From the UHGV virus genome UHGV-0225830: DNA of 13,800 nt. One strand, 5' to 3'. Of the stretch, positions 847 to 13,800 are shown piece after piece. The notes under the pieces are model-generated. The model was not told the origin of the DNA. It did no database searches and worked only from the letters and a program-made list of their open reading frames with translations. A program made the translations under genes and the position numbers. The DNA is from a virus. The number at the start of each line of letters is the position of its first letter. The first letter of the stretch is position 1.

Positions 847-935
847 TTAATTTTCAACTGAATGCGCTTGAAAATATAATCGGGGATAAAATGATTCTAG
901 CAATATTTTATCCCCCAACCGTAGAGAGTAAGCTT

Positions 936-1451
936 ATGGGACAATTCGTGCCAGATTTGTCGCTAACCTCACCTAACATGGTTATTTCGCTGATCAACCA
1001 CGACCTTCAGCTCAATCTGCAAGAGAATGAGGTTGAAATCAGCGAAGTAAAGACCAGTGATGAATTGGATCGTGACACTACCGCTCTTGTAAAGATTAAA
1101 CGTCCTGGCAACAGAACGTTACAGATCTATTACAACCGTTTAACCGCGGAGCGGTGGTTAAACCAGCAGCCTATTCTGGTAAAAGTTTCCGGTAATGGCT
1201 TTACTACACACGATCTAATCGATGGAATTAACGCGGCTTGTGGTTGCAATTTACAAGCCGAAGATCTTACCGATGAACCATTTACCGTAGGGAGAGACGC
1301 TGTAACATTACAGGTTTCACCCAAGTCGTTAGGTTATAAAGGCCAATTCTCCGTTCTGGTTTTCGGTAACGATGAAGAAGCCGCTGTAGTAAAAGACAAC
1401 GATTTAATCGTTACTGCAGATAACCGTGTCTTAACATTCGGAGGTCGCTGA
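936..1451 (+). CDS. family A modular protein (paralog of 9265-10113, 10127-10603 and 13271->13800); alternative start ATG 891
   Basis: ORF 891-1451; the internal ATG at 936 has an SD-like GAGAGTAAG upstream, and the protein from 936 (MGQFVPDLSLTSPNMVISLINHD...) aligns with the N-terminus of the 9265 protein (MSLTSKQKLLKLINTEN...). Shared motifs: LI..IN, GY.G..F.Y.R, TT.DL...IN..[CY]G.NL...D. Stop overlaps the next start (ATGA at 1448-1451). Confidence 0.65.
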   Translation: MGQFVPDLSLTSPNMVISLINHDLQLNLQENEVEISEVKTSDELDRDTTALVKIKRPGNRTLQIYYNRLTAERWLNQQPILVKVSGNGFTTHDLIDGINAACGCNLQAEDLTDEPFTVGRDAVTLQVSPKSLGYKGQFSVLVFGNDEEAAVVKDNDLIVTADNRVLTFGGR

Positions 1452-2071
1452 TGACTGAACTGGTAGGAAAGGTACGCGTTCACGAACTACCGACTCTTTC
1501 AGAAGACGTCACGGGTGTAGTAGTCTTAGCGTCTAAGGAACAAACTGAATACCAACTCCCGATTGAGAAATTAGGGGGTACTGAGGTTACAGTGAGTCCG
1601 TCGGCGAATAACATCCTTAAGTCTAATAACGATGGGTTATTTGTTAATGGTGCTCATCCGATAGTACCAAAAATAGATGCAAAAACCTTATCGGGAAATA
1701 TGGTAGTAGAAAAAACGTTGACGGGTGGTGCGGTAATCTGCAAAACAACGGTTGACGTTAACAACAGGCTGGGTGTTTCGCAATTATCAGGAGTGTCAAT
1801 TTATAGCCAGTGCCTGTTGGAAAATAAATTGGTTTACCTGGCAGCGGATGGTAGTATTATTGATGCGTATTTCTACGTTAGTAATACAAAAACTACAGCC
1901 AGTACAATAACCCACACCATTCGTGTTGTTTTAGCGAAGGTACCCTCTAAAGTTATCAATATCGACGATTTGTCTGAAACCGAAGTACAGTACGAGAATG
2001 GTAATTTACCTGTTAAGATCGTTATTAAACATCTTGCAGGGACAACACTTTCTCAGAACGGAATGAAGTAA
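1451..2071 (+). CDS. hypothetical protein (206 aa), translationally coupled to the upstream gene
   Basis: ATG at 1451 overlaps the upstream stop (GCTGATGACT); SD GGAGGT at 1440-1445; followed by a strong terminator. Confidence 0.75.
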   Translation: MTELVGKVRVHELPTLSEDVTGVVVLASKEQTEYQLPIEKLGGTEVTVSPSANNILKSNNDGLFVNGAHPIVPKIDAKTLSGNMVVEKTLTGGAVICKTTVDVNNRLGVSQLSGVSIYSQCLLENKLVYLAADGSIIDAYFYVSNTKTTASTITHTIRVVLAKVPSKVINIDDLSETEVQYENGNLPVKIVIKHLAGTTLSQNGMK

Positions 2072-2077
2072 TTTTTA

Positions 2078-2117
2078 GGTAGTAGGGGCTTAGCCCCTAC
2101 TACCTTTTTTATTTTTT
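2078..2117 (+). terminator. Rho-independent terminator
   Basis: Perfect 12-bp stem GGTAGTAGGGGC (2078-2089) / GCCCCTACTACC (2093-2104), loop TTA, followed by TTTTTTATTTTTT (2105-2117); sits 7 nt after the stop of the 1451-2071 gene. Confidence 0.8.
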
Positions 2118-2162
2118 CTCAGATATATATTACCTAGGGGAGAGTGAAATTTACGTTCACTC
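2117..2162 (+). promoter_or_regulatory. Copy 1 of a repeated promoter-like element plus 5'-leader hairpin
   Basis: 20-nt TCAGATATATATTACCTAGG (2119-2138) is identical to 5653-5672; then GAGAGT conserved; then a 7-bp hairpin GAGTGAA (2142-2148) / TTCACTC (2156-2162). ATG of the next gene (2191) is 53 nt after the 20-mer. Confidence 0.5.
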
Positions 2163-2190
2163 CATTAGTTATAGCCTAAAGGAGGATTAG

Positions 2191-3042
2191 ATGTATCACC
2201 CGTATTATCTCCCGCACATTCTAGCAAATAGGGACCCCGGTTATTACTACGAACAAACAAAGGGATCTTTTAATCGACTTTACATTCGTGAATTTAATAC
2301 CGACGAAATGACTGATGACCAGTATCTGGAGTATCTAAAAGACCTTTACGGTTTTTCAAAATCGAATAAAGGTGACTTTGGACGTTCCGCAGTCATTAGG
2401 GTTGGTGAATATCGTCATTTGGCTAAGCCTGTTACTTACCCTATTATTACACGCGCTTATACATCGGATAGGCAATATATTGCTGAACTAAAATTTCCTT
2501 TACGGATAGACGGGCCCCAAATTAGCGCTATAGAAGTAGAGATTCAACCAATTGCTGAAGACTATATTGAAGACTACTTCAAGAAAGCTAAAGACGTACT
2601 CGACGAGGGTTTAAGTTACTCCGAAGAAGGAACGATTTGTCTTCTCTCGTTACTCACGAAGACTTACGTCACAGCAAATTTCCGTATCTCCGATTCCAGT
2701 AACTACAATACACTTACCCCCTCTAAGACAAAACCTGTTTATTGGGACGATCGGCTAGTCGACAGACAACGCTGGCTTACTATCTTAGATAGAGTAAAAT
2801 TCGAACCCCCTAAACACACCGAAGACGATTTTATTTTATTGCACAACTTCGAACCAATTTATATTCCAACGCATTTTGATCAAGCCTTACGTCATCGGTT
2901 GAAGTATGTGTTGGAATTACGGTACGGAAAGATAAACGGACTAACCTGTTCCGGTGAATTGGGTGAAGAAGAACGCGAGAAGATAAAAATCGTGTTTGAT
3001 AAGTTGGTTGAAGATTACATTAAGAAGGAAGGGCAATTATGA
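2191..3042 (+). CDS. hypothetical protein (283 aa)
   Basis: ATG 2191 preceded by AAAGGAGG (2178-2185); stop overlaps the next start (ATGA at 3039-3042); acidic, no recognised motif. Confidence 0.75.
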   Translation: MYHPYYLPHILANRDPGYYYEQTKGSFNRLYIREFNTDEMTDDQYLEYLKDLYGFSKSNKGDFGRSAVIRVGEYRHLAKPVTYPIITRAYTSDRQYIAELKFPLRIDGPQISAIEVEIQPIAEDYIEDYFKKAKDVLDEGLSYSEEGTICLLSLLTKTYVTANFRISDSSNYNTLTPSKTKPVYWDDRLVDRQRWLTILDRVKFEPPKHTEDDFILLHNFEPIYIPTHFDQALRHRLKYVLELRYGKINGLTCSGELGEEEREKIKIVFDKLVEDYIKKEGQL

Positions 3043-12531: not shown

Positions 12532-12614
12532 CTATTTCTAAGGTGTTTATACCTTACTTTGTATAAAGACGCTTAGAATGCGTTTTACGCACGATTTGGC
12601 GGTTAAAATGAATA

Positions 12615-12650
12615 TACCCTACTCCTTATCGGGAGTAGGGTAGTTTTTAT
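12615..12650. terminator. Bidirectional Rho-independent terminator between convergent genes
   Basis: Perfect 11-bp stem TACCCTACTCC (12615-12625) / GGAGTAGGGTA (12632-12642), loop TTATCG; T-run GTTTTTATT downstream on the plus strand and a U-rich run on the minus strand; lies directly after the minus-strand stop (12647-12649). Confidence 0.75.
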
Positions 12651-13129
12651 TGTTCCGCAGGATGGAGCATTGTTCCAGTGTCAGGCGCTACACCTTCTAT
12701 ACAGCGGAAGAAAGTAATGCCTTTACCATCGCCCGTTTTATATTCTAAAGTAGAATACGCAAACGTTGGCGTTTTTGAAAGTAAACCATTTACACGGTAG
12801 TAACGTTGTCCAGTGATAGGATCAATATTCCCATTAACTTTACCTAATAAATCTTTATAAAGTTGTGGCGACTCAATCTTGCCGTTTGGCCAAGTGGCTA
12901 CCCAGTTAGCACCAGTATCGACTACGGTTACCGACCCTAACATAAGGTTAGTCGAGCTGACGACAGGTTTGTAATTTGCAAAATCTTGCTCTACACCCAT
13001 ACAGGTGTAAATAACCATGTCATGTGGCTCCACCGGCACAGTCGAGAATTGACCGTTACTATTCGGTTGTAAAGCACATCCTGCCAACGAAAAAACACCA
13101 ACCAAAACGATAAGAAAACGCTTTATCAT
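12647..13129 (-). CDS. Lipoprotein (160 aa precursor from ATG 13129), predicted outer-membrane localisation
   Basis: The only convincing minus-strand gene. N-terminus MIKRFLIVLVGVFSLAGC is a signal peptide with lipobox L-A-G-C; +2 residue is Ala; AGGTG lies 6 nt upstream of the ATG. The track start at 13138 is a GTG inside that SD. Confidence 0.75.
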   Translation of the reverse strand: MIKRFLIVLVGVFSLAGCALQPNSNGQFSTVPVEPHDMVIYTCMGVEQDFANYKPVVSSTNLMLGSVTVVDTGANWVATWPNGKIESPQLYKDLLGKVNGNIDPITGQRYYRVNGLLSKTPTFAYSTLEYKTGDGKGITFFRCIEGVAPDTGTMLHPAEQ

Positions 13130-13170
13130 ACTTTTCACCTTTTTTATAAAAAGTTTAAAAAAATATTTTT

Positions 13171-13222
13171 ACAGACAAGCCTTACTGCCGTCTGTCATAA
13201 CAATTAACACCACTTCTATAAT
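13171..13222 (+). promoter_or_regulatory. Possible sigma70-type -10 element with upstream inverted repeat in the divergent intergenic region
   Basis: Perfect TATAAT at 13217-13222, 48 nt upstream of ATG 13271; no good -35 hexamer; inverted repeat ACAGAC (13171-13176) / GTCTGT (13190-13195); AT-rich tract at 13141-13170. Confidence 0.3.
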
Positions 13223-13270
13223 CCGAACAATACTATGCAATCCACCCTGCCAACCACGAGGTAAATACGA

Positions 13271-13800
13271 TGGCTAAAACTTTCCAGCAGCAACTTATTG
13301 ATGCTGTTAATGCCAAAAACAGTTCCTTGGACCCTGCACTTACCGTAGCTGATGTTGACTTCGGTGCTGTTTCAGAAGCAAGTCCCAGCGGCGATAGTGA
13401 TACACGCAACACTAAAATTACTCTGACTGCTAAAGCTGAAAGCCAGCATTATAAAGGTGAAAAAGAGTTCCACTACACGCGTCTGGTCTCACAAAGCCTC
13501 ATTACGCTGACGGAAGTTACAGCAGAAACTACCGAAGTTGAAGATTCTGTCATCATCGCAAAACTCAATGAAGATATAGTCGCTAAAGGCTATGCTGACG
13601 ACGAGTTCAAAGCCGAAGAACTGACCATTCAAAAAGCTGATGCAGGCGAAGGTAATTTCAATTACACCGTCAGTGTAAACGAAGGCCATATCAAATTCCT
13701 GGCTGGCCAAATCGCGGTGTATAGTTATAAAAAGCCAGCGCCTGAGAAAGTAGCTCTGGACGGGCTGGTAGGTGAACTCGACAGCTTCACCGCGCCGGGC
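13271..13800 (+). CDS. family A modular protein, 5' part (3' end lies outside the window)
   Basis: ATG 13271 preceded by GAGGT; open to the window end, so absent from the ORF track. N-terminus MAKTFQQQLIDAVNAKNSSLDPALTVADVDFG and HYKGEKEFHYTRL match the family A motifs. Confidence 0.7.

What the first reader, a model, noticed from the sequence alone, without database searches (positions are those of the whole stretch)
891..13800. Dispersed multigene family (family A) built from a repeated module of about 70 residues
Four genes (936-1451, 9265-10113, 10127-10603, 13271->13800) share an N-terminus of the form L-I/L-x-x-I/V-N-x-x-N...T-V/F-x-D-V-D/x-x-G-x-P...T-x-x-T-L-T...[GY]-x-G-x-x-x-F-x-Y-x-R-[LI]. 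The same motif recurs inside each protein (e.g. TTHDLIDGINAACGCNLQAEDLTDE in the first, TTADLLPVINEQYGLTLTEDDV in the third, TAADLLNAINAKYDLNILPSDIVD in the second). The proteins therefore look like arrays of 2-4 related modules with variable length and sequence. The copies lie next to a tail-fibre-like gene and flank the block of unknown genes. A plausible reading is a set of fibre, decoration or receptor-binding accessory proteins with an Ig-like repeat, diversified by duplication.
Basis: partly seen in the sequence, partly recalled or inferred. Interest (0 to 1): 0.7.

Follow-up and report, generated by a model that had tools for sequence, protein, structure and literature searches.

The report
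DUF7941 virion protein paralogs, jumbo phage
Four genes in this piece of a roughly 222-kb jumbo-phage genome belong to a real but already described family of virus-particle proteins (DUF7941), each built from two or three copies of a ~70-residue unit. They probably form or anchor host-sensing filaments at the tail baseplate.

Summary
All four genes (936-1451, 9265-10113, 10127-10603, 13270->13800) score above Pfam's threshold for DUF7941 (PF25613; 50-180 bits against a cut-off of 27). The internal motif recurrence is real, but only at profile level. The ~145-residue N-terminal domain is a tandem duplication of a ~70-residue module (hhalign E 1e-8, score 38 against a shuffle null of 8±2). The C-terminal domain of the 282-aa protein holds a third, degenerate copy.

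The Ig-like idea fails. The module is one helix plus a three-stranded sheet. The only significant solved-structure match is phiKZ gp127, in the outer peripheral baseplate (PDB 9XQD).

The family is already known. It is SPN3US "paralog family B" (2016-17), where gp138 is the ortholog of the 282-aa gene, and the DUF7941 filament proteins of phage Goslar (2026 preprint). The window comes from an uncatalogued SPN3US-like chimallivirus found as ~222-kb contigs.

Modest new points:
- the module duplication;
- paralog subtypes defined by short C-terminal motifs;
- gp122-like members paired with fibre or receptor-binding genes that share a 41-44-residue N-terminal anchor;
- one hypervariable paralog (60-66% identity between genomes that are otherwise ~98% identical).

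Verdict: new members of a known kind, moderate interest.

The parts
1..326 (+). 3' end of a T2-type gp38 tail-fibre adhesin gene. This is context: the fibre operon that A1 belongs to.
   Evidence: Pfam GP38 3.4e-19. 93% nucleotide identity to Krischvirus gp38 genes. In the near-identical genome L006 it follows a 1480-aa fibre gene.
343..846 (+). Second gp38-like adhesin gene (context).
   Evidence: Pfam Gp38_N 3.5e-20. PHROG 1121 tail fiber adhesin 6e-46.
936..1451 (+). A1: a gp122-like DUF7941 paralog of 171 aa. Module 1 is about residues 8-80, module 2 about 81-146, and the tail ends ...NRVLTFGGR (motif L2).
   Evidence: DUF7941 64 bits. 33% identical to SPN3US gp122. The stop overlaps the start of the next gene. 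96% or 73% identical in near-identical genomes, co-varying with the type of downstream gene.
1451..2071 (+). 206-aa putative receptor-binding protein. Its first ~44 residues (nt 1451-1582) are a conserved N-terminal anchor. It is the proposed partner of A1.
   Evidence: The N-terminal 43-44 aa are 40-50% identical to SPN3US gp123, to a 706-aa SASA/DUF6645 protein at the same position in L003, and to the 1480-aa fibre of L006. The remainder is unrelated. The C-terminal part matches the end of the 842-position PHROG 33169 profile.
2077..2105 (+). Terminator-like hairpin that closes the fibre/A1/RBP unit.
   Evidence: 13-bp stem with 8 GC pairs and a T-run.
9101..9128 (+). Terminator-like hairpin between the block of unknown genes and A2.
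   Evidence: 12-bp stem.
9265..10113 (+). A2: a full-length DUF7941 paralog of 282 aa. Module 1 is nt 9265-9480, module 2 nt 9481-9684. The linker with motifs L1 and L2 is nt 9685-9813. The third, degenerate module (C-terminal domain) is nt 9814-10038. A 23-aa extension ends ...SVLPGFLD.
   Evidence: DUF7941 179.6 bits over the whole model. 44% identical to SPN3US gp138. AlphaFold2 model. Foldseek hit to 9xqd_0, E 4e-6. Module tests. 100% conserved in L002-L004.
10127..10603 (+). A3: a DUF7941 paralog of 158 aa with the N-terminal domain only. Module 1 is residues 1-74, module 2 residues 75-143. The tail is basic (PPAKPSRAKKK) and has no L1 or L2 motif.
   Evidence: DUF7941 104 bits. Closest SPN3US member is gp141, 38%. 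97-99% conserved in relatives. Tail comparison.
10608..10628 (+). Terminator-like hairpin that closes the A2-A3 unit.
   Evidence: 9-bp stem with 6 GC pairs and a T-run.
13270..13800 (+). A4: a hypervariable DUF7941 paralog with 177 of ~180 aa inside the window. Module 1 is residues 1-76, module 2 residues 77-156. The conserved tail (157 onwards) carries motif L1 (...GLVGELDSFTAP).

Best explanation
The four genes are paralogs of the chimallivirus-specific DUF7941 family, also known as SPN3US 'paralog family B' and typified by Goslar gp22/gp23 and phiKZ gp126/gp127. They lie in an uncatalogued ~222-kb SPN3US-like jumbo phage of enterobacteria.

Shown here:
- Each protein starts with a ~145-residue domain that is a tandem duplication of a ~70-residue alpha/beta module (helix plus three strands).
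- A2 adds a flexible linker and a C-terminal domain that contains a third, degenerate copy.
- The predicted fold of A2 and A4 matches phiKZ gp127, which sits at the outer peripheral baseplate.

Inferred mechanism:
- The proteins are virion components that assemble head to tail. A short linear motif after the N-terminal domain of one subunit docks on the N-terminal domain of the next, giving flexible chains anchored at the baseplate periphery.
- The motifs are L1 (L-x-G-[LF]-x-x-P) and L2 (h-[YL]-[ST]-[YF]-G).
- The paralogs would play different parts. A2 (L1 + L2 + C-terminal domain) and A4 (L1 only; hypervariable surface, conserved tail) would be chain subunits. A3 (no motif) would be a cap or terminal unit.
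- A1, and a second gp122-like copy (A0) just upstream of the window in relatives, would be adaptors. Each is encoded immediately before a fibre or receptor-binding gene that starts with the same conserved 41-44-residue anchor.
For: Membership:
- Pfam scores for all four.
- A family profile hits PDB chain PHIKZ127 at E 5.6e-26.
- Predicted folds of A2 and A4 match 9xqd_0 and nothing else significantly.
- 57 BFVD matches at E <= 0.001. Those of the 50 listed that carry a phage name are from Erwinia, Klebsiella, Pseudomonas and Serratia phages such as RAY and Phabio.

Duplication.

Genome identity:
- Gene order matches SPN3US gp122-gp123 ... gp138-gp141. Seoulvirus belongs to Chimalliviridae.
- The exact A2 protein lies on ~221-225-kb contigs.

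Chain formation:
- Goslar gp22 forms filaments in negative stain, and AlphaFold3 predicts linker-to-N-terminal-domain docking. There are ~2,700 copies per virion (gp22 ~580, gp23 ~2,140).
- Independently here, 27 of the top 148 family representatives carry 2-3 complete N-terminal domains in one polypeptide. The period is 165-180 aa, the size of A4-type proteins.
- In A4 alleles the tail is the most conserved segment (entropy 0.34) and module 2 the most variable.

Host-recognition link:
- Relatives are fused to six ConA-like lectin domains (P0190). One BFVD match is annotated 'tail fiber protein'.
- A1 shares a terminator-bounded unit with gp38 adhesins and overlaps the start of an anchor-bearing gene whose C-terminal part is swapped between strains.
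- A1 divergence tracks that swap.
Against: - SPN3US proteomics detected family B members in a tailless mutant and classed them as head proteins ('Head ejection?').
- SPN3US gp122, the A1 ortholog, was not detected in wild-type virions.
- The phiKZ placement of gp127 rests on docking an AlphaFold3 model into 4.4-4.7 Å maps.
- The Goslar filament model is a preprint and saw no DUF7941 density on the baseplate.
- No multimer prediction could be run here, so motif docking, the cap role of A3 and the A1-anchor contact are inferences.
- The C-terminal domain of the A2 model has only moderate confidence (pLDDT 50-79).
Confidence: 0.6

Rival explanations
1. The family consists of head-associated proteins, either internal or ejected, packaged with the DNA as proposed for SPN3US paralog family B. 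It has no role at the baseplate.
For: All 20 SPN3US members were detected in virions and in a tailless mutant. gp141 and gp160 are highly abundant and were annotated 'Head ejection?'. PHROGs files 1037/2935 under 'head and packaging'.
Against: - phiKZ gp127 is modelled at the outer peripheral baseplate.
- Goslar gp22 forms long filaments that could co-purify with heads.
- Fusions to lectin domains and a BFVD match annotated 'tail fiber protein' make little sense for internal head proteins.
- A1 is co-transcribed with fibre and adhesin genes.
- The strong allelic diversity of A4 suggests an exposed surface.
Confidence: 0.2
2. The gp122-like members (A1, and A0 upstream of the window) are not structural. 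They would be assembly chaperones for the fibre or receptor-binding protein encoded right after them and would be absent from the mature particle.
For: SPN3US gp122 was not found in wild-type virions and was seen only in a mutant preparation. The gene is tightly coupled to the downstream anchor-bearing gene. Many phage fibres need a chaperone encoded next to them (general knowledge).
Against: A1 keeps the full two-module domain of the structural members, plus the L2 tail motif found in their linkers. Low copy number could explain the missed detection. PHROG 30606 (a 701-position profile) matches A1 only over its first ~147 positions, so longer proteins with this domain at the N-terminus exist. 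Goslar members with a C-terminal carbohydrate-binding or hydrolase domain were detected in virions.
Confidence: 0.15
3. The proteins are Ig-like capsid or fibre decoration proteins, like T4 Hoc.
For: They have a repetitive modular build, variable copies and a position near fibre genes. One distant relative carries a sub-threshold Ig_2 match next to its DUF7941 domains (P0238, 24.9 bits against a cut-off of 27).
Against: The predicted module is alpha/beta, not an all-beta sandwich. No Ig-like structure appears among significant PDB matches. No Ig family appears in Pfam for any of the four.
Confidence: 0.03

Closest known systems
Pfam DUF7941 (PF25613), with Goslar gp22/gp23 and eight paralogs (bioRxiv 10.64898/2026.04.21.720040)
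   Same: All four proteins match the model. A2 has the gp22 layout (N-terminal domain, disordered linker, C-terminal domain). A3 and A4 have the gp23-like layout (N-terminal domain with or without the linker). There are many paralogs per genome, and some relatives are fused to carbohydrate-binding domains.
   Different: In this window the receptor-binding parts are separate polypeptides with their own N-terminal anchor, encoded after gp122-like members, rather than fused. The internal duplication of the N-terminal domain, the module-like C-terminal domain and the L1/L2 tail subtypes are not mentioned in that paper. Assembly of these particular proteins is untested.
SPN3US paralog family B: gps 83, 138-154, 161, 237, with gp122 as a candidate (PMC5105663, PMC5694885)
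   Same: Direct orthology and gene order: A1~gp122 (33%), the 1451-2071 N-terminus~gp123, A2~gp138 (44%), A3~gp141 (38%). The small unknown genes in between are partly conserved.
   Different: SPN3US has a 17-gene tandem array of mostly full-length members. This phage has fewer and shorter members, scattered: A2-A3, then A4 plus one or two more, and two gp122-like copies. A lysis-type cluster is inserted between A3 and A4. The SPN3US authors assigned the family to the head.
phiKZ gp127 (PDB 9XQD) and gp126
   Different: Sequence identity is 15-19%. phiKZ has only two or three members. Only residues 1-150 are modelled, from a docked prediction at ~4.4 Å.
Modular receptor-binding proteins with exchangeable C-termini on a conserved N-terminal anchor (general principle in tailed phages; own knowledge)
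   Same: The 41-44-residue N-terminus is conserved across a 206-aa protein, a 706-aa SASA/DUF6645 protein, a 1480-aa T4-like fibre and SPN3US gp123. The remainders are unrelated.
   Different: The anchor's partner is proposed, not shown, to be the gp122-like DUF7941 protein encoded immediately upstream.

Membership tests
Pfam DUF7941 (PF25613) | Whole-protein score above the curated gathering threshold (27 bits) | tested here: met
   A1 64.0, A2 179.6, A3 104.2, A4 49.7 bits.
Pfam DUF7941 (PF25613) | N-terminal globular domain with the fold of phiKZ gp127 residues 1-150 | tested here: met
Pfam DUF7941 (PF25613) | Layout of N-terminal domain, disordered linker and optional C-terminal globular domain (Goslar gp22/gp23) | tested here: met
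   A2: pLDDT 76-92 for residues 1-140, below 50 for 142-167, then a structured C-terminal domain. A4: domain plus a lower-confidence tail. A1 and A3 align to profile positions 3-166 and 7-155 only.
Pfam DUF7941 (PF25613) | Encoded by a chimallivirus (phiKZ-like, nucleus-forming jumbo phage) | tested here: inconclusive
   Gene order matches SPN3US, genus Seoulvirus, family Chimalliviridae. Contigs are ~222 kb. The phiKZ-type promoter word TATATTAC is present. Chimallin, PhuZ and the split RNA polymerases were not looked for.
Pfam DUF7941 (PF25613) | Head-to-tail self-assembly into filaments | not testable with these tools
   No multimer prediction or experiment was available. Indirect support: tandem N-terminal domains in single polypeptides of relatives and conserved tail motifs.
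SPN3US paralog family B | Homology to gp138-gp154, with a conserved position relative to gp122-gp124 and the block of small genes | tested here: met
   tblastn of window proteins on the SPN3US locus: A2 to gp138 2e-65, A3 to gp141 9e-24, A1 to gp122 3e-24. Three block genes are also conserved.
SPN3US paralog family B | Presence in the purified virion | not testable with these tools
   Known only for the SPN3US and Goslar homologs.

The most novel reading that the evidence does not exclude
DUF7941 proteins may form a combinatorial 'peptide-in-module' building kit. The N-terminal domain is a duplicated module offering two docking sites. The linker carries two separable docking peptides, L1 and L2. 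The C-terminal domain is a third module, so that chains amount to continuous strings of one ancestral ~70-residue unit. Paralogs that keep only L1 (A4 type), only L2 (gp122 type) or neither (A3) would act as extenders, fibre adaptors and caps. Through the gp122-type adaptors, interchangeable receptor-binding proteins and even a T4-type long fibre with gp38 adhesins would be plugged in via a shared 41-44-residue anchor. The hypervariable A4 type would provide an antigenically or receptor-variable filament surface.
Probability: 0.3. Interest if true: 0.6.

Novelty: new member of a known kind. Interest (0 to 1): 0.4.

Why it matters
DUF7941 proteins are among the most abundant components of chimallivirus particles, yet their location (head or baseplate) and their role are still disputed. 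This window adds comparative evidence on the baseplate and host-recognition side:
- some paralogs are wired into fibre operons;
- gp122-like members are paired with anchor-bearing, swappable receptor-binding genes;
- one member varies strongly between near-identical genomes.

It also gives a simple structural account of the family: one ~70-residue module repeated two or three times, plus short tail motifs. That account yields concrete, testable predictions about how the filaments are built, and it could guide engineering of host range in jumbo phages. The family itself and its general properties are already published, so this is incremental.

Tried and rejected
- Intramolecular Smith-Waterman of module 1 against module 2 in each single protein, with 1000 shuffles, was not significant for A1-A3. 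The repeat is visible only with profiles.
- A first shuffle null on the 180-sequence alignment gave one outlier (score 127.8), attributed to gap-rich columns. It was redone on columns with at least 50% occupancy.
- Single-sequence phmmer of A1 and A3 against PDB sequences gave no relevant hit. Only profiles reach PHIKZ127.
- Megablast of the whole window against 50,697 phage records matched only the gp38 fragment and the gene at 12016-12531. The phage is not in that collection.
- The first word-indexed protein search returned only close relatives. A second search with an alignment that included SPN3US paralogs was needed.
- An exact look-up of the 343-846 product found nothing.
- Chance motif resemblance was rejected on the Pfam, profile and fold evidence.
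- RBP anchors contain HELD[SN][YF], which resembles the A4 tail GELDGF. The match is too short to test and is left as an idea.
- TATG words upstream of A2 and A4, read as phiKZ-type late promoters, carry too little information to use.

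
Full report
**Layout of the window.** Almost all long ORFs lie on the + strand.
- The four genes of the finding are A1 (936-1451, 171 aa), A2 (9265-10113, 282 aa), A3 (10127-10603, 158 aa) and A4.
- A4 starts at 13270 (ATG), one base before the stated coordinate, and runs off the window. A 97%-identical relative is 180 aa long, so only about three codons are missing.
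- Before A1 lie the end of a T2-type gp38 adhesin gene (1-326) and a second gp38-like gene (343-846).
- After A1, overlapping its stop codon, lies a 206-aa gene (1451-2071).
- A block of genes with no family assignment spans 2191-9094.
- Between A3 and A4 lie a GH108/PG_binding_3 muramidase, a DUF1353 protein, a gene with a LAS-peptidase-like motif and a minus-strand lipoprotein-like gene.
- Terminator-like hairpins at 2077-2105, 9101-9128, 10608-10628 and 12615-12642 cut the region into units: [fibre ... gp38, gp38', A1, 206-aa gene], [block], [A2, A3], [lysis-type genes], and [A4 ...].

**Is the family real?** Yes.
- All four proteins match Pfam PF25613 (DUF7941) above the curated threshold of 27 bits: A1 64, A2 179.6, A3 104.2, A4 49.7. 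A2 covers the whole model; the others cover its first ~155-166 positions.
- They also match PHROGs 1037/2935 ('virion structural protein'), and A4 matches PHROG 4862.
- No other ORF of the window belongs to the family.
- Pairwise BLASTP is weak (3e-5 to 0.02) but in register from the N-terminus.
L-x-x-x-D-V-x-x-G-x-P ... R-N-T ... G-x-x-T-V-x-Y-x-R. Y60 and R62 are invariant.

**Is the motif repeated inside each protein?** Yes, but only at profile level.
- Within single sequences the resemblance does not beat shuffles: z about 0 for A1-A3 and 3.3 for A4.
- With 24 sequences, residues 1-72 against 73-140 of A2 give hhalign E 2e-5 and score 27.9, against a column-shuffle null of 7.8±1.6.
- With 180 N-terminal domains drawn from an exhaustive HMMER search, the values are probability 95.6%, E 1.3e-8 and score 37.8, against a null of 8.1±1.7 (max 14.0 of 100). 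The alignment covers helix, loop and hairpin in register.
- The C-terminal domain of 110 full-length members also aligns in register. Against module 1 the score is 24.6 (E 1e-4, null 8.5±1.6, max 14.8). Against module 2 it is 20.9 (null 8.8±2.2, max 17.6) (weaker with few sequences).
- So the N-terminal domain is a tandem duplication of a ~70-residue module, and the C-terminal domain very probably holds a third, degenerate copy. That gives two modules in A1, A3 and A4 and three in A2.

**Fold.**
- AlphaFold2 on A2 (28-row alignment) gave mean pLDDT 67: 76-92 over residues 1-140, below 50 for 142-167, and 50-79 in the C-terminal domain.
- The elements of the A2 model are H5-16, E28-30, E40-46, E55-60 | H83-94, E112-117, E127-133 | ... 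H188-195, E215-224, E237-242, E253-258. This is a helix-plus-three-strand pattern that recurs.
- A4 (32-row alignment) gave pLDDT 89 and pTM 0.77, with the same pattern twice and a less confident tail.
- A family profile finds PHIKZ127 by sequence at E 5.6e-26.
- In BFVD, 57 viral models match at E <= 0.001. Those of the 50 listed that carry a phage name are from Erwinia, Klebsiella, Pseudomonas and Serratia phages such as RAY and Phabio.
- The Ig-like proposal is therefore not supported.

**What genome is this?**
- tblastn of A2 finds 172 phage records: SPN3US-like, Erwinia, Pseudomonas and other jumbo phages. The best identity is 44-46%, with 4-6 hits per genome.
- Gene order matches SPN3US: A1~gp122, the first 43 aa of the 206-aa gene~gp123, three block genes~gp127/gp131/gp135, A2~gp138, A3~gp141. 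Seoulvirus is classified in Chimalliviridae.
- At nucleotide level, only the gp38 fragment and the gene at 12016-12531 match any catalogued phage.
- The exact A2 protein lies on ~221-225-kb contigs from metagenomes and sequencing-run assemblies. Close homologs lie on contigs of up to ~228 kb from Salmonella, E. coli and Shigella assemblies.
- In those genomes one or two more DUF7941 genes follow A4.
- A further gp122-like copy (A0, 186 aa) lies upstream, before a 1480-aa fibre (Phage_fiber_2, Gp34_trimer, Peptidase_S74) and the two gp38 genes.
- The family as a whole has 2,856 representatives at 50% clustering with E <= 1e-3.

**Subtypes and partners.** The linker of full-length members carries two short conserved motifs: L1 (V-x-x-x-L-x-G-[LF]-x-x-P) and L2 (h-x-h-[YL]-[ST]-[YF]-[GP]).
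- A4-type proteins end with L1 (GELDGFTAP).
- A0, A1 and SPN3US gp122 end with L2 (VLTFG / VLTYG).
- A3 has neither and ends in a basic tail.
- A2 has both, plus the C-terminal domain.

Among 24 A4 alleles the tail is the most conserved segment (mean entropy 0.34) and module 2 the most variable.

Between genomes whose other proteins are 92-100% identical (most 97% or more), the paralogs differ in conservation:
- A2 is 100% identical and A3 is 97-99%.
- A4 is only 60-66%. Nucleotide similarity stops about 60 nt into the gene.
- A1 is 96% or 73%, and this tracks the downstream gene. That gene is either the 206-aa type or a SASA/DUF6645 type, intact as one 706-aa ORF in L003 and split into 206-aa and 489-aa ORFs in L004.

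The downstream proteins, the 1480-aa fibre and SPN3US gp123 share only their first 41-44 residues, at 40-58% identity. So every gp122-like gene precedes a gene that starts with this anchor.

**Independent support for chains.** Of the top 148 family representatives, 27 contain two or three complete N-terminal domains in one polypeptide. The period is 165-180 residues, the size of an A4-type protein. Others are fused to six ConA-like lectin domains. Covalent concatenation in some phages is what would be expected if separate subunits line up head to tail in others.

**What is already known.**
- Thomas et al. 2016 and Ali et al. 2017 described this family in SPN3US as a 17-to-20-member paralog family (gps 83, 138-154, 161, 237, with gp122 as a candidate). 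All were detected in virions, and gp141 and gp160 were abundant. They were assigned to the head because they were present in a tailless mutant.
- The 2026 phiKZ atlas places one gp127 per star-lobe unit at the outer end of the gp139 band of the outer peripheral baseplate. This rests on a docked AlphaFold3 model at ~4.4 Å.
- The 2026 Goslar preprint names the family DUF7941 and finds ten paralogs, with gp22 at ~580 and gp23 at ~2,140 copies per virion.
- That preprint reports no structural matches for gp22 or gp23. It predicts head-to-tail docking of the linker on the next N-terminal domain.
- It also sees filaments of purified gp22 and proposes a baseplate-anchored 'fiber cloud'.
- It mentions neither SPN3US nor an internal duplication.

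**Most likely mechanism (inferred).** The four proteins are virion components that assemble through tail-to-domain docking into flexible chains at the baseplate periphery.
- A2- and A4-type proteins would be chain subunits, and A3 a terminal unit.
- A0 and A1 would be adaptors that connect anchor-bearing fibres or receptor-binding proteins.

The main rival is the head-protein reading from SPN3US proteomics. For A1 specifically, a non-structural chaperone role remains possible, because gp122 was not detected in wild-type SPN3US virions. None of the contacts could be tested here.

**Verdict.**
- The family is already in Pfam and in the literature, so these are new members of a known kind.
- What this analysis adds is incremental but testable: module duplication, a module-like C-terminal domain, tail-motif subtypes, adaptor-anchor gene pairing and a hypervariable paralog.

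Noticed in passing
window 1-326 and 343-846; L006 3653-9397: A jumbo SPN3US-like phage carries a T-even-type fibre tip. The end of a T2-type gp38 adhesin is 93% nucleotide-identical to Krischvirus (RB49/JSE-like) phages, and a second gp38_N-only adhesin-like gene follows it. In a near-identical genome these follow a 1480-aa fibre with Phage_fiber_2, Gp34_trimer and Peptidase_S74 domains. Only gp38 matches T-even phages at nucleotide level, which suggests recent exchange of the receptor-recognition gene.
   Followed up: partly
window 7010-7438 and 8663-9094: A second paralog pair inside the block of unknown genes: 34% identity over 137 aa, E 3e-27. The second member is also related to SPN3US gp135.
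   Followed up: partly
window 5672-6217 and 7460-8593: Two unknown proteins are internally duplicated: residues 22-95 against 103-176 (z 25) and residues 105-200 against 221-316 (z 24). Neither has a Pfam match above threshold.
   Followed up: partly
window 2119-2137 and 5653-5671: An identical 19-mer, TCAGATATATATTACCTAG, occurs twice and contains TATATTAC, the word listed as the phiKZ predicted promoter (PMC7058600, Table 2). The first copy sits right after the terminator-like hairpin at 2077-2105. The 8-mer alone is not statistically unusual (2 found, 0.7 expected). Possibly the promoters of the block of unknown genes.
   Followed up: partly
window 10666-12531: A lysis-type cluster is inserted between A3 and A4. 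It holds a GH108 + PG_binding_3 muramidase and a DUF1353 protein. The 171-aa protein at 12016-12531 has no Pfam hit but carries SQHKFGNAID, which resembles the S-x-H-x-x-G-x-A-x-D motif of LAS/M15 peptidases (own knowledge). That gene is 75% nucleotide-identical to genes of Salmonella phages STsAS and SPAsTU.
   Followed up: no
window 12647-13138 (- strand): The only long minus-strand gene encodes a 163-aa protein with a lipoprotein-type signal (…LAGC…). A bidirectional terminator-like hairpin at 12615-12642 lies between its end and the preceding + strand gene.
   Followed up: no
window 3482-3529 and 7460-8593, compared with L002-L004: The block of unknown genes varies by insertions, deletions and replacements between genomes that are ~98% identical elsewhere. 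L002 has an extra 280-aa gene, and the 377-aa gene is replaced by 251-255-aa genes in relatives.
   Followed up: partly
whole window; contigs behind L002-L007: The phage lineage appears as ~220-228-kb contigs in many Salmonella, E. coli and Shigella isolate assemblies and in metagenomes. It has no nucleotide-level relative in the 50,697-record phage collection. Downstream of the DUF7941 genes the relatives carry radical-SAM genes.
   Followed up: no
L006 3444-3575: A 43-aa ORF between A0 and the 1480-aa fibre matches the extreme C-terminus of SPN3US gp124 (54% identity over 28 aa). It looks like a remnant left when the fibre replaced a gp124-like gene.
   Followed up: no
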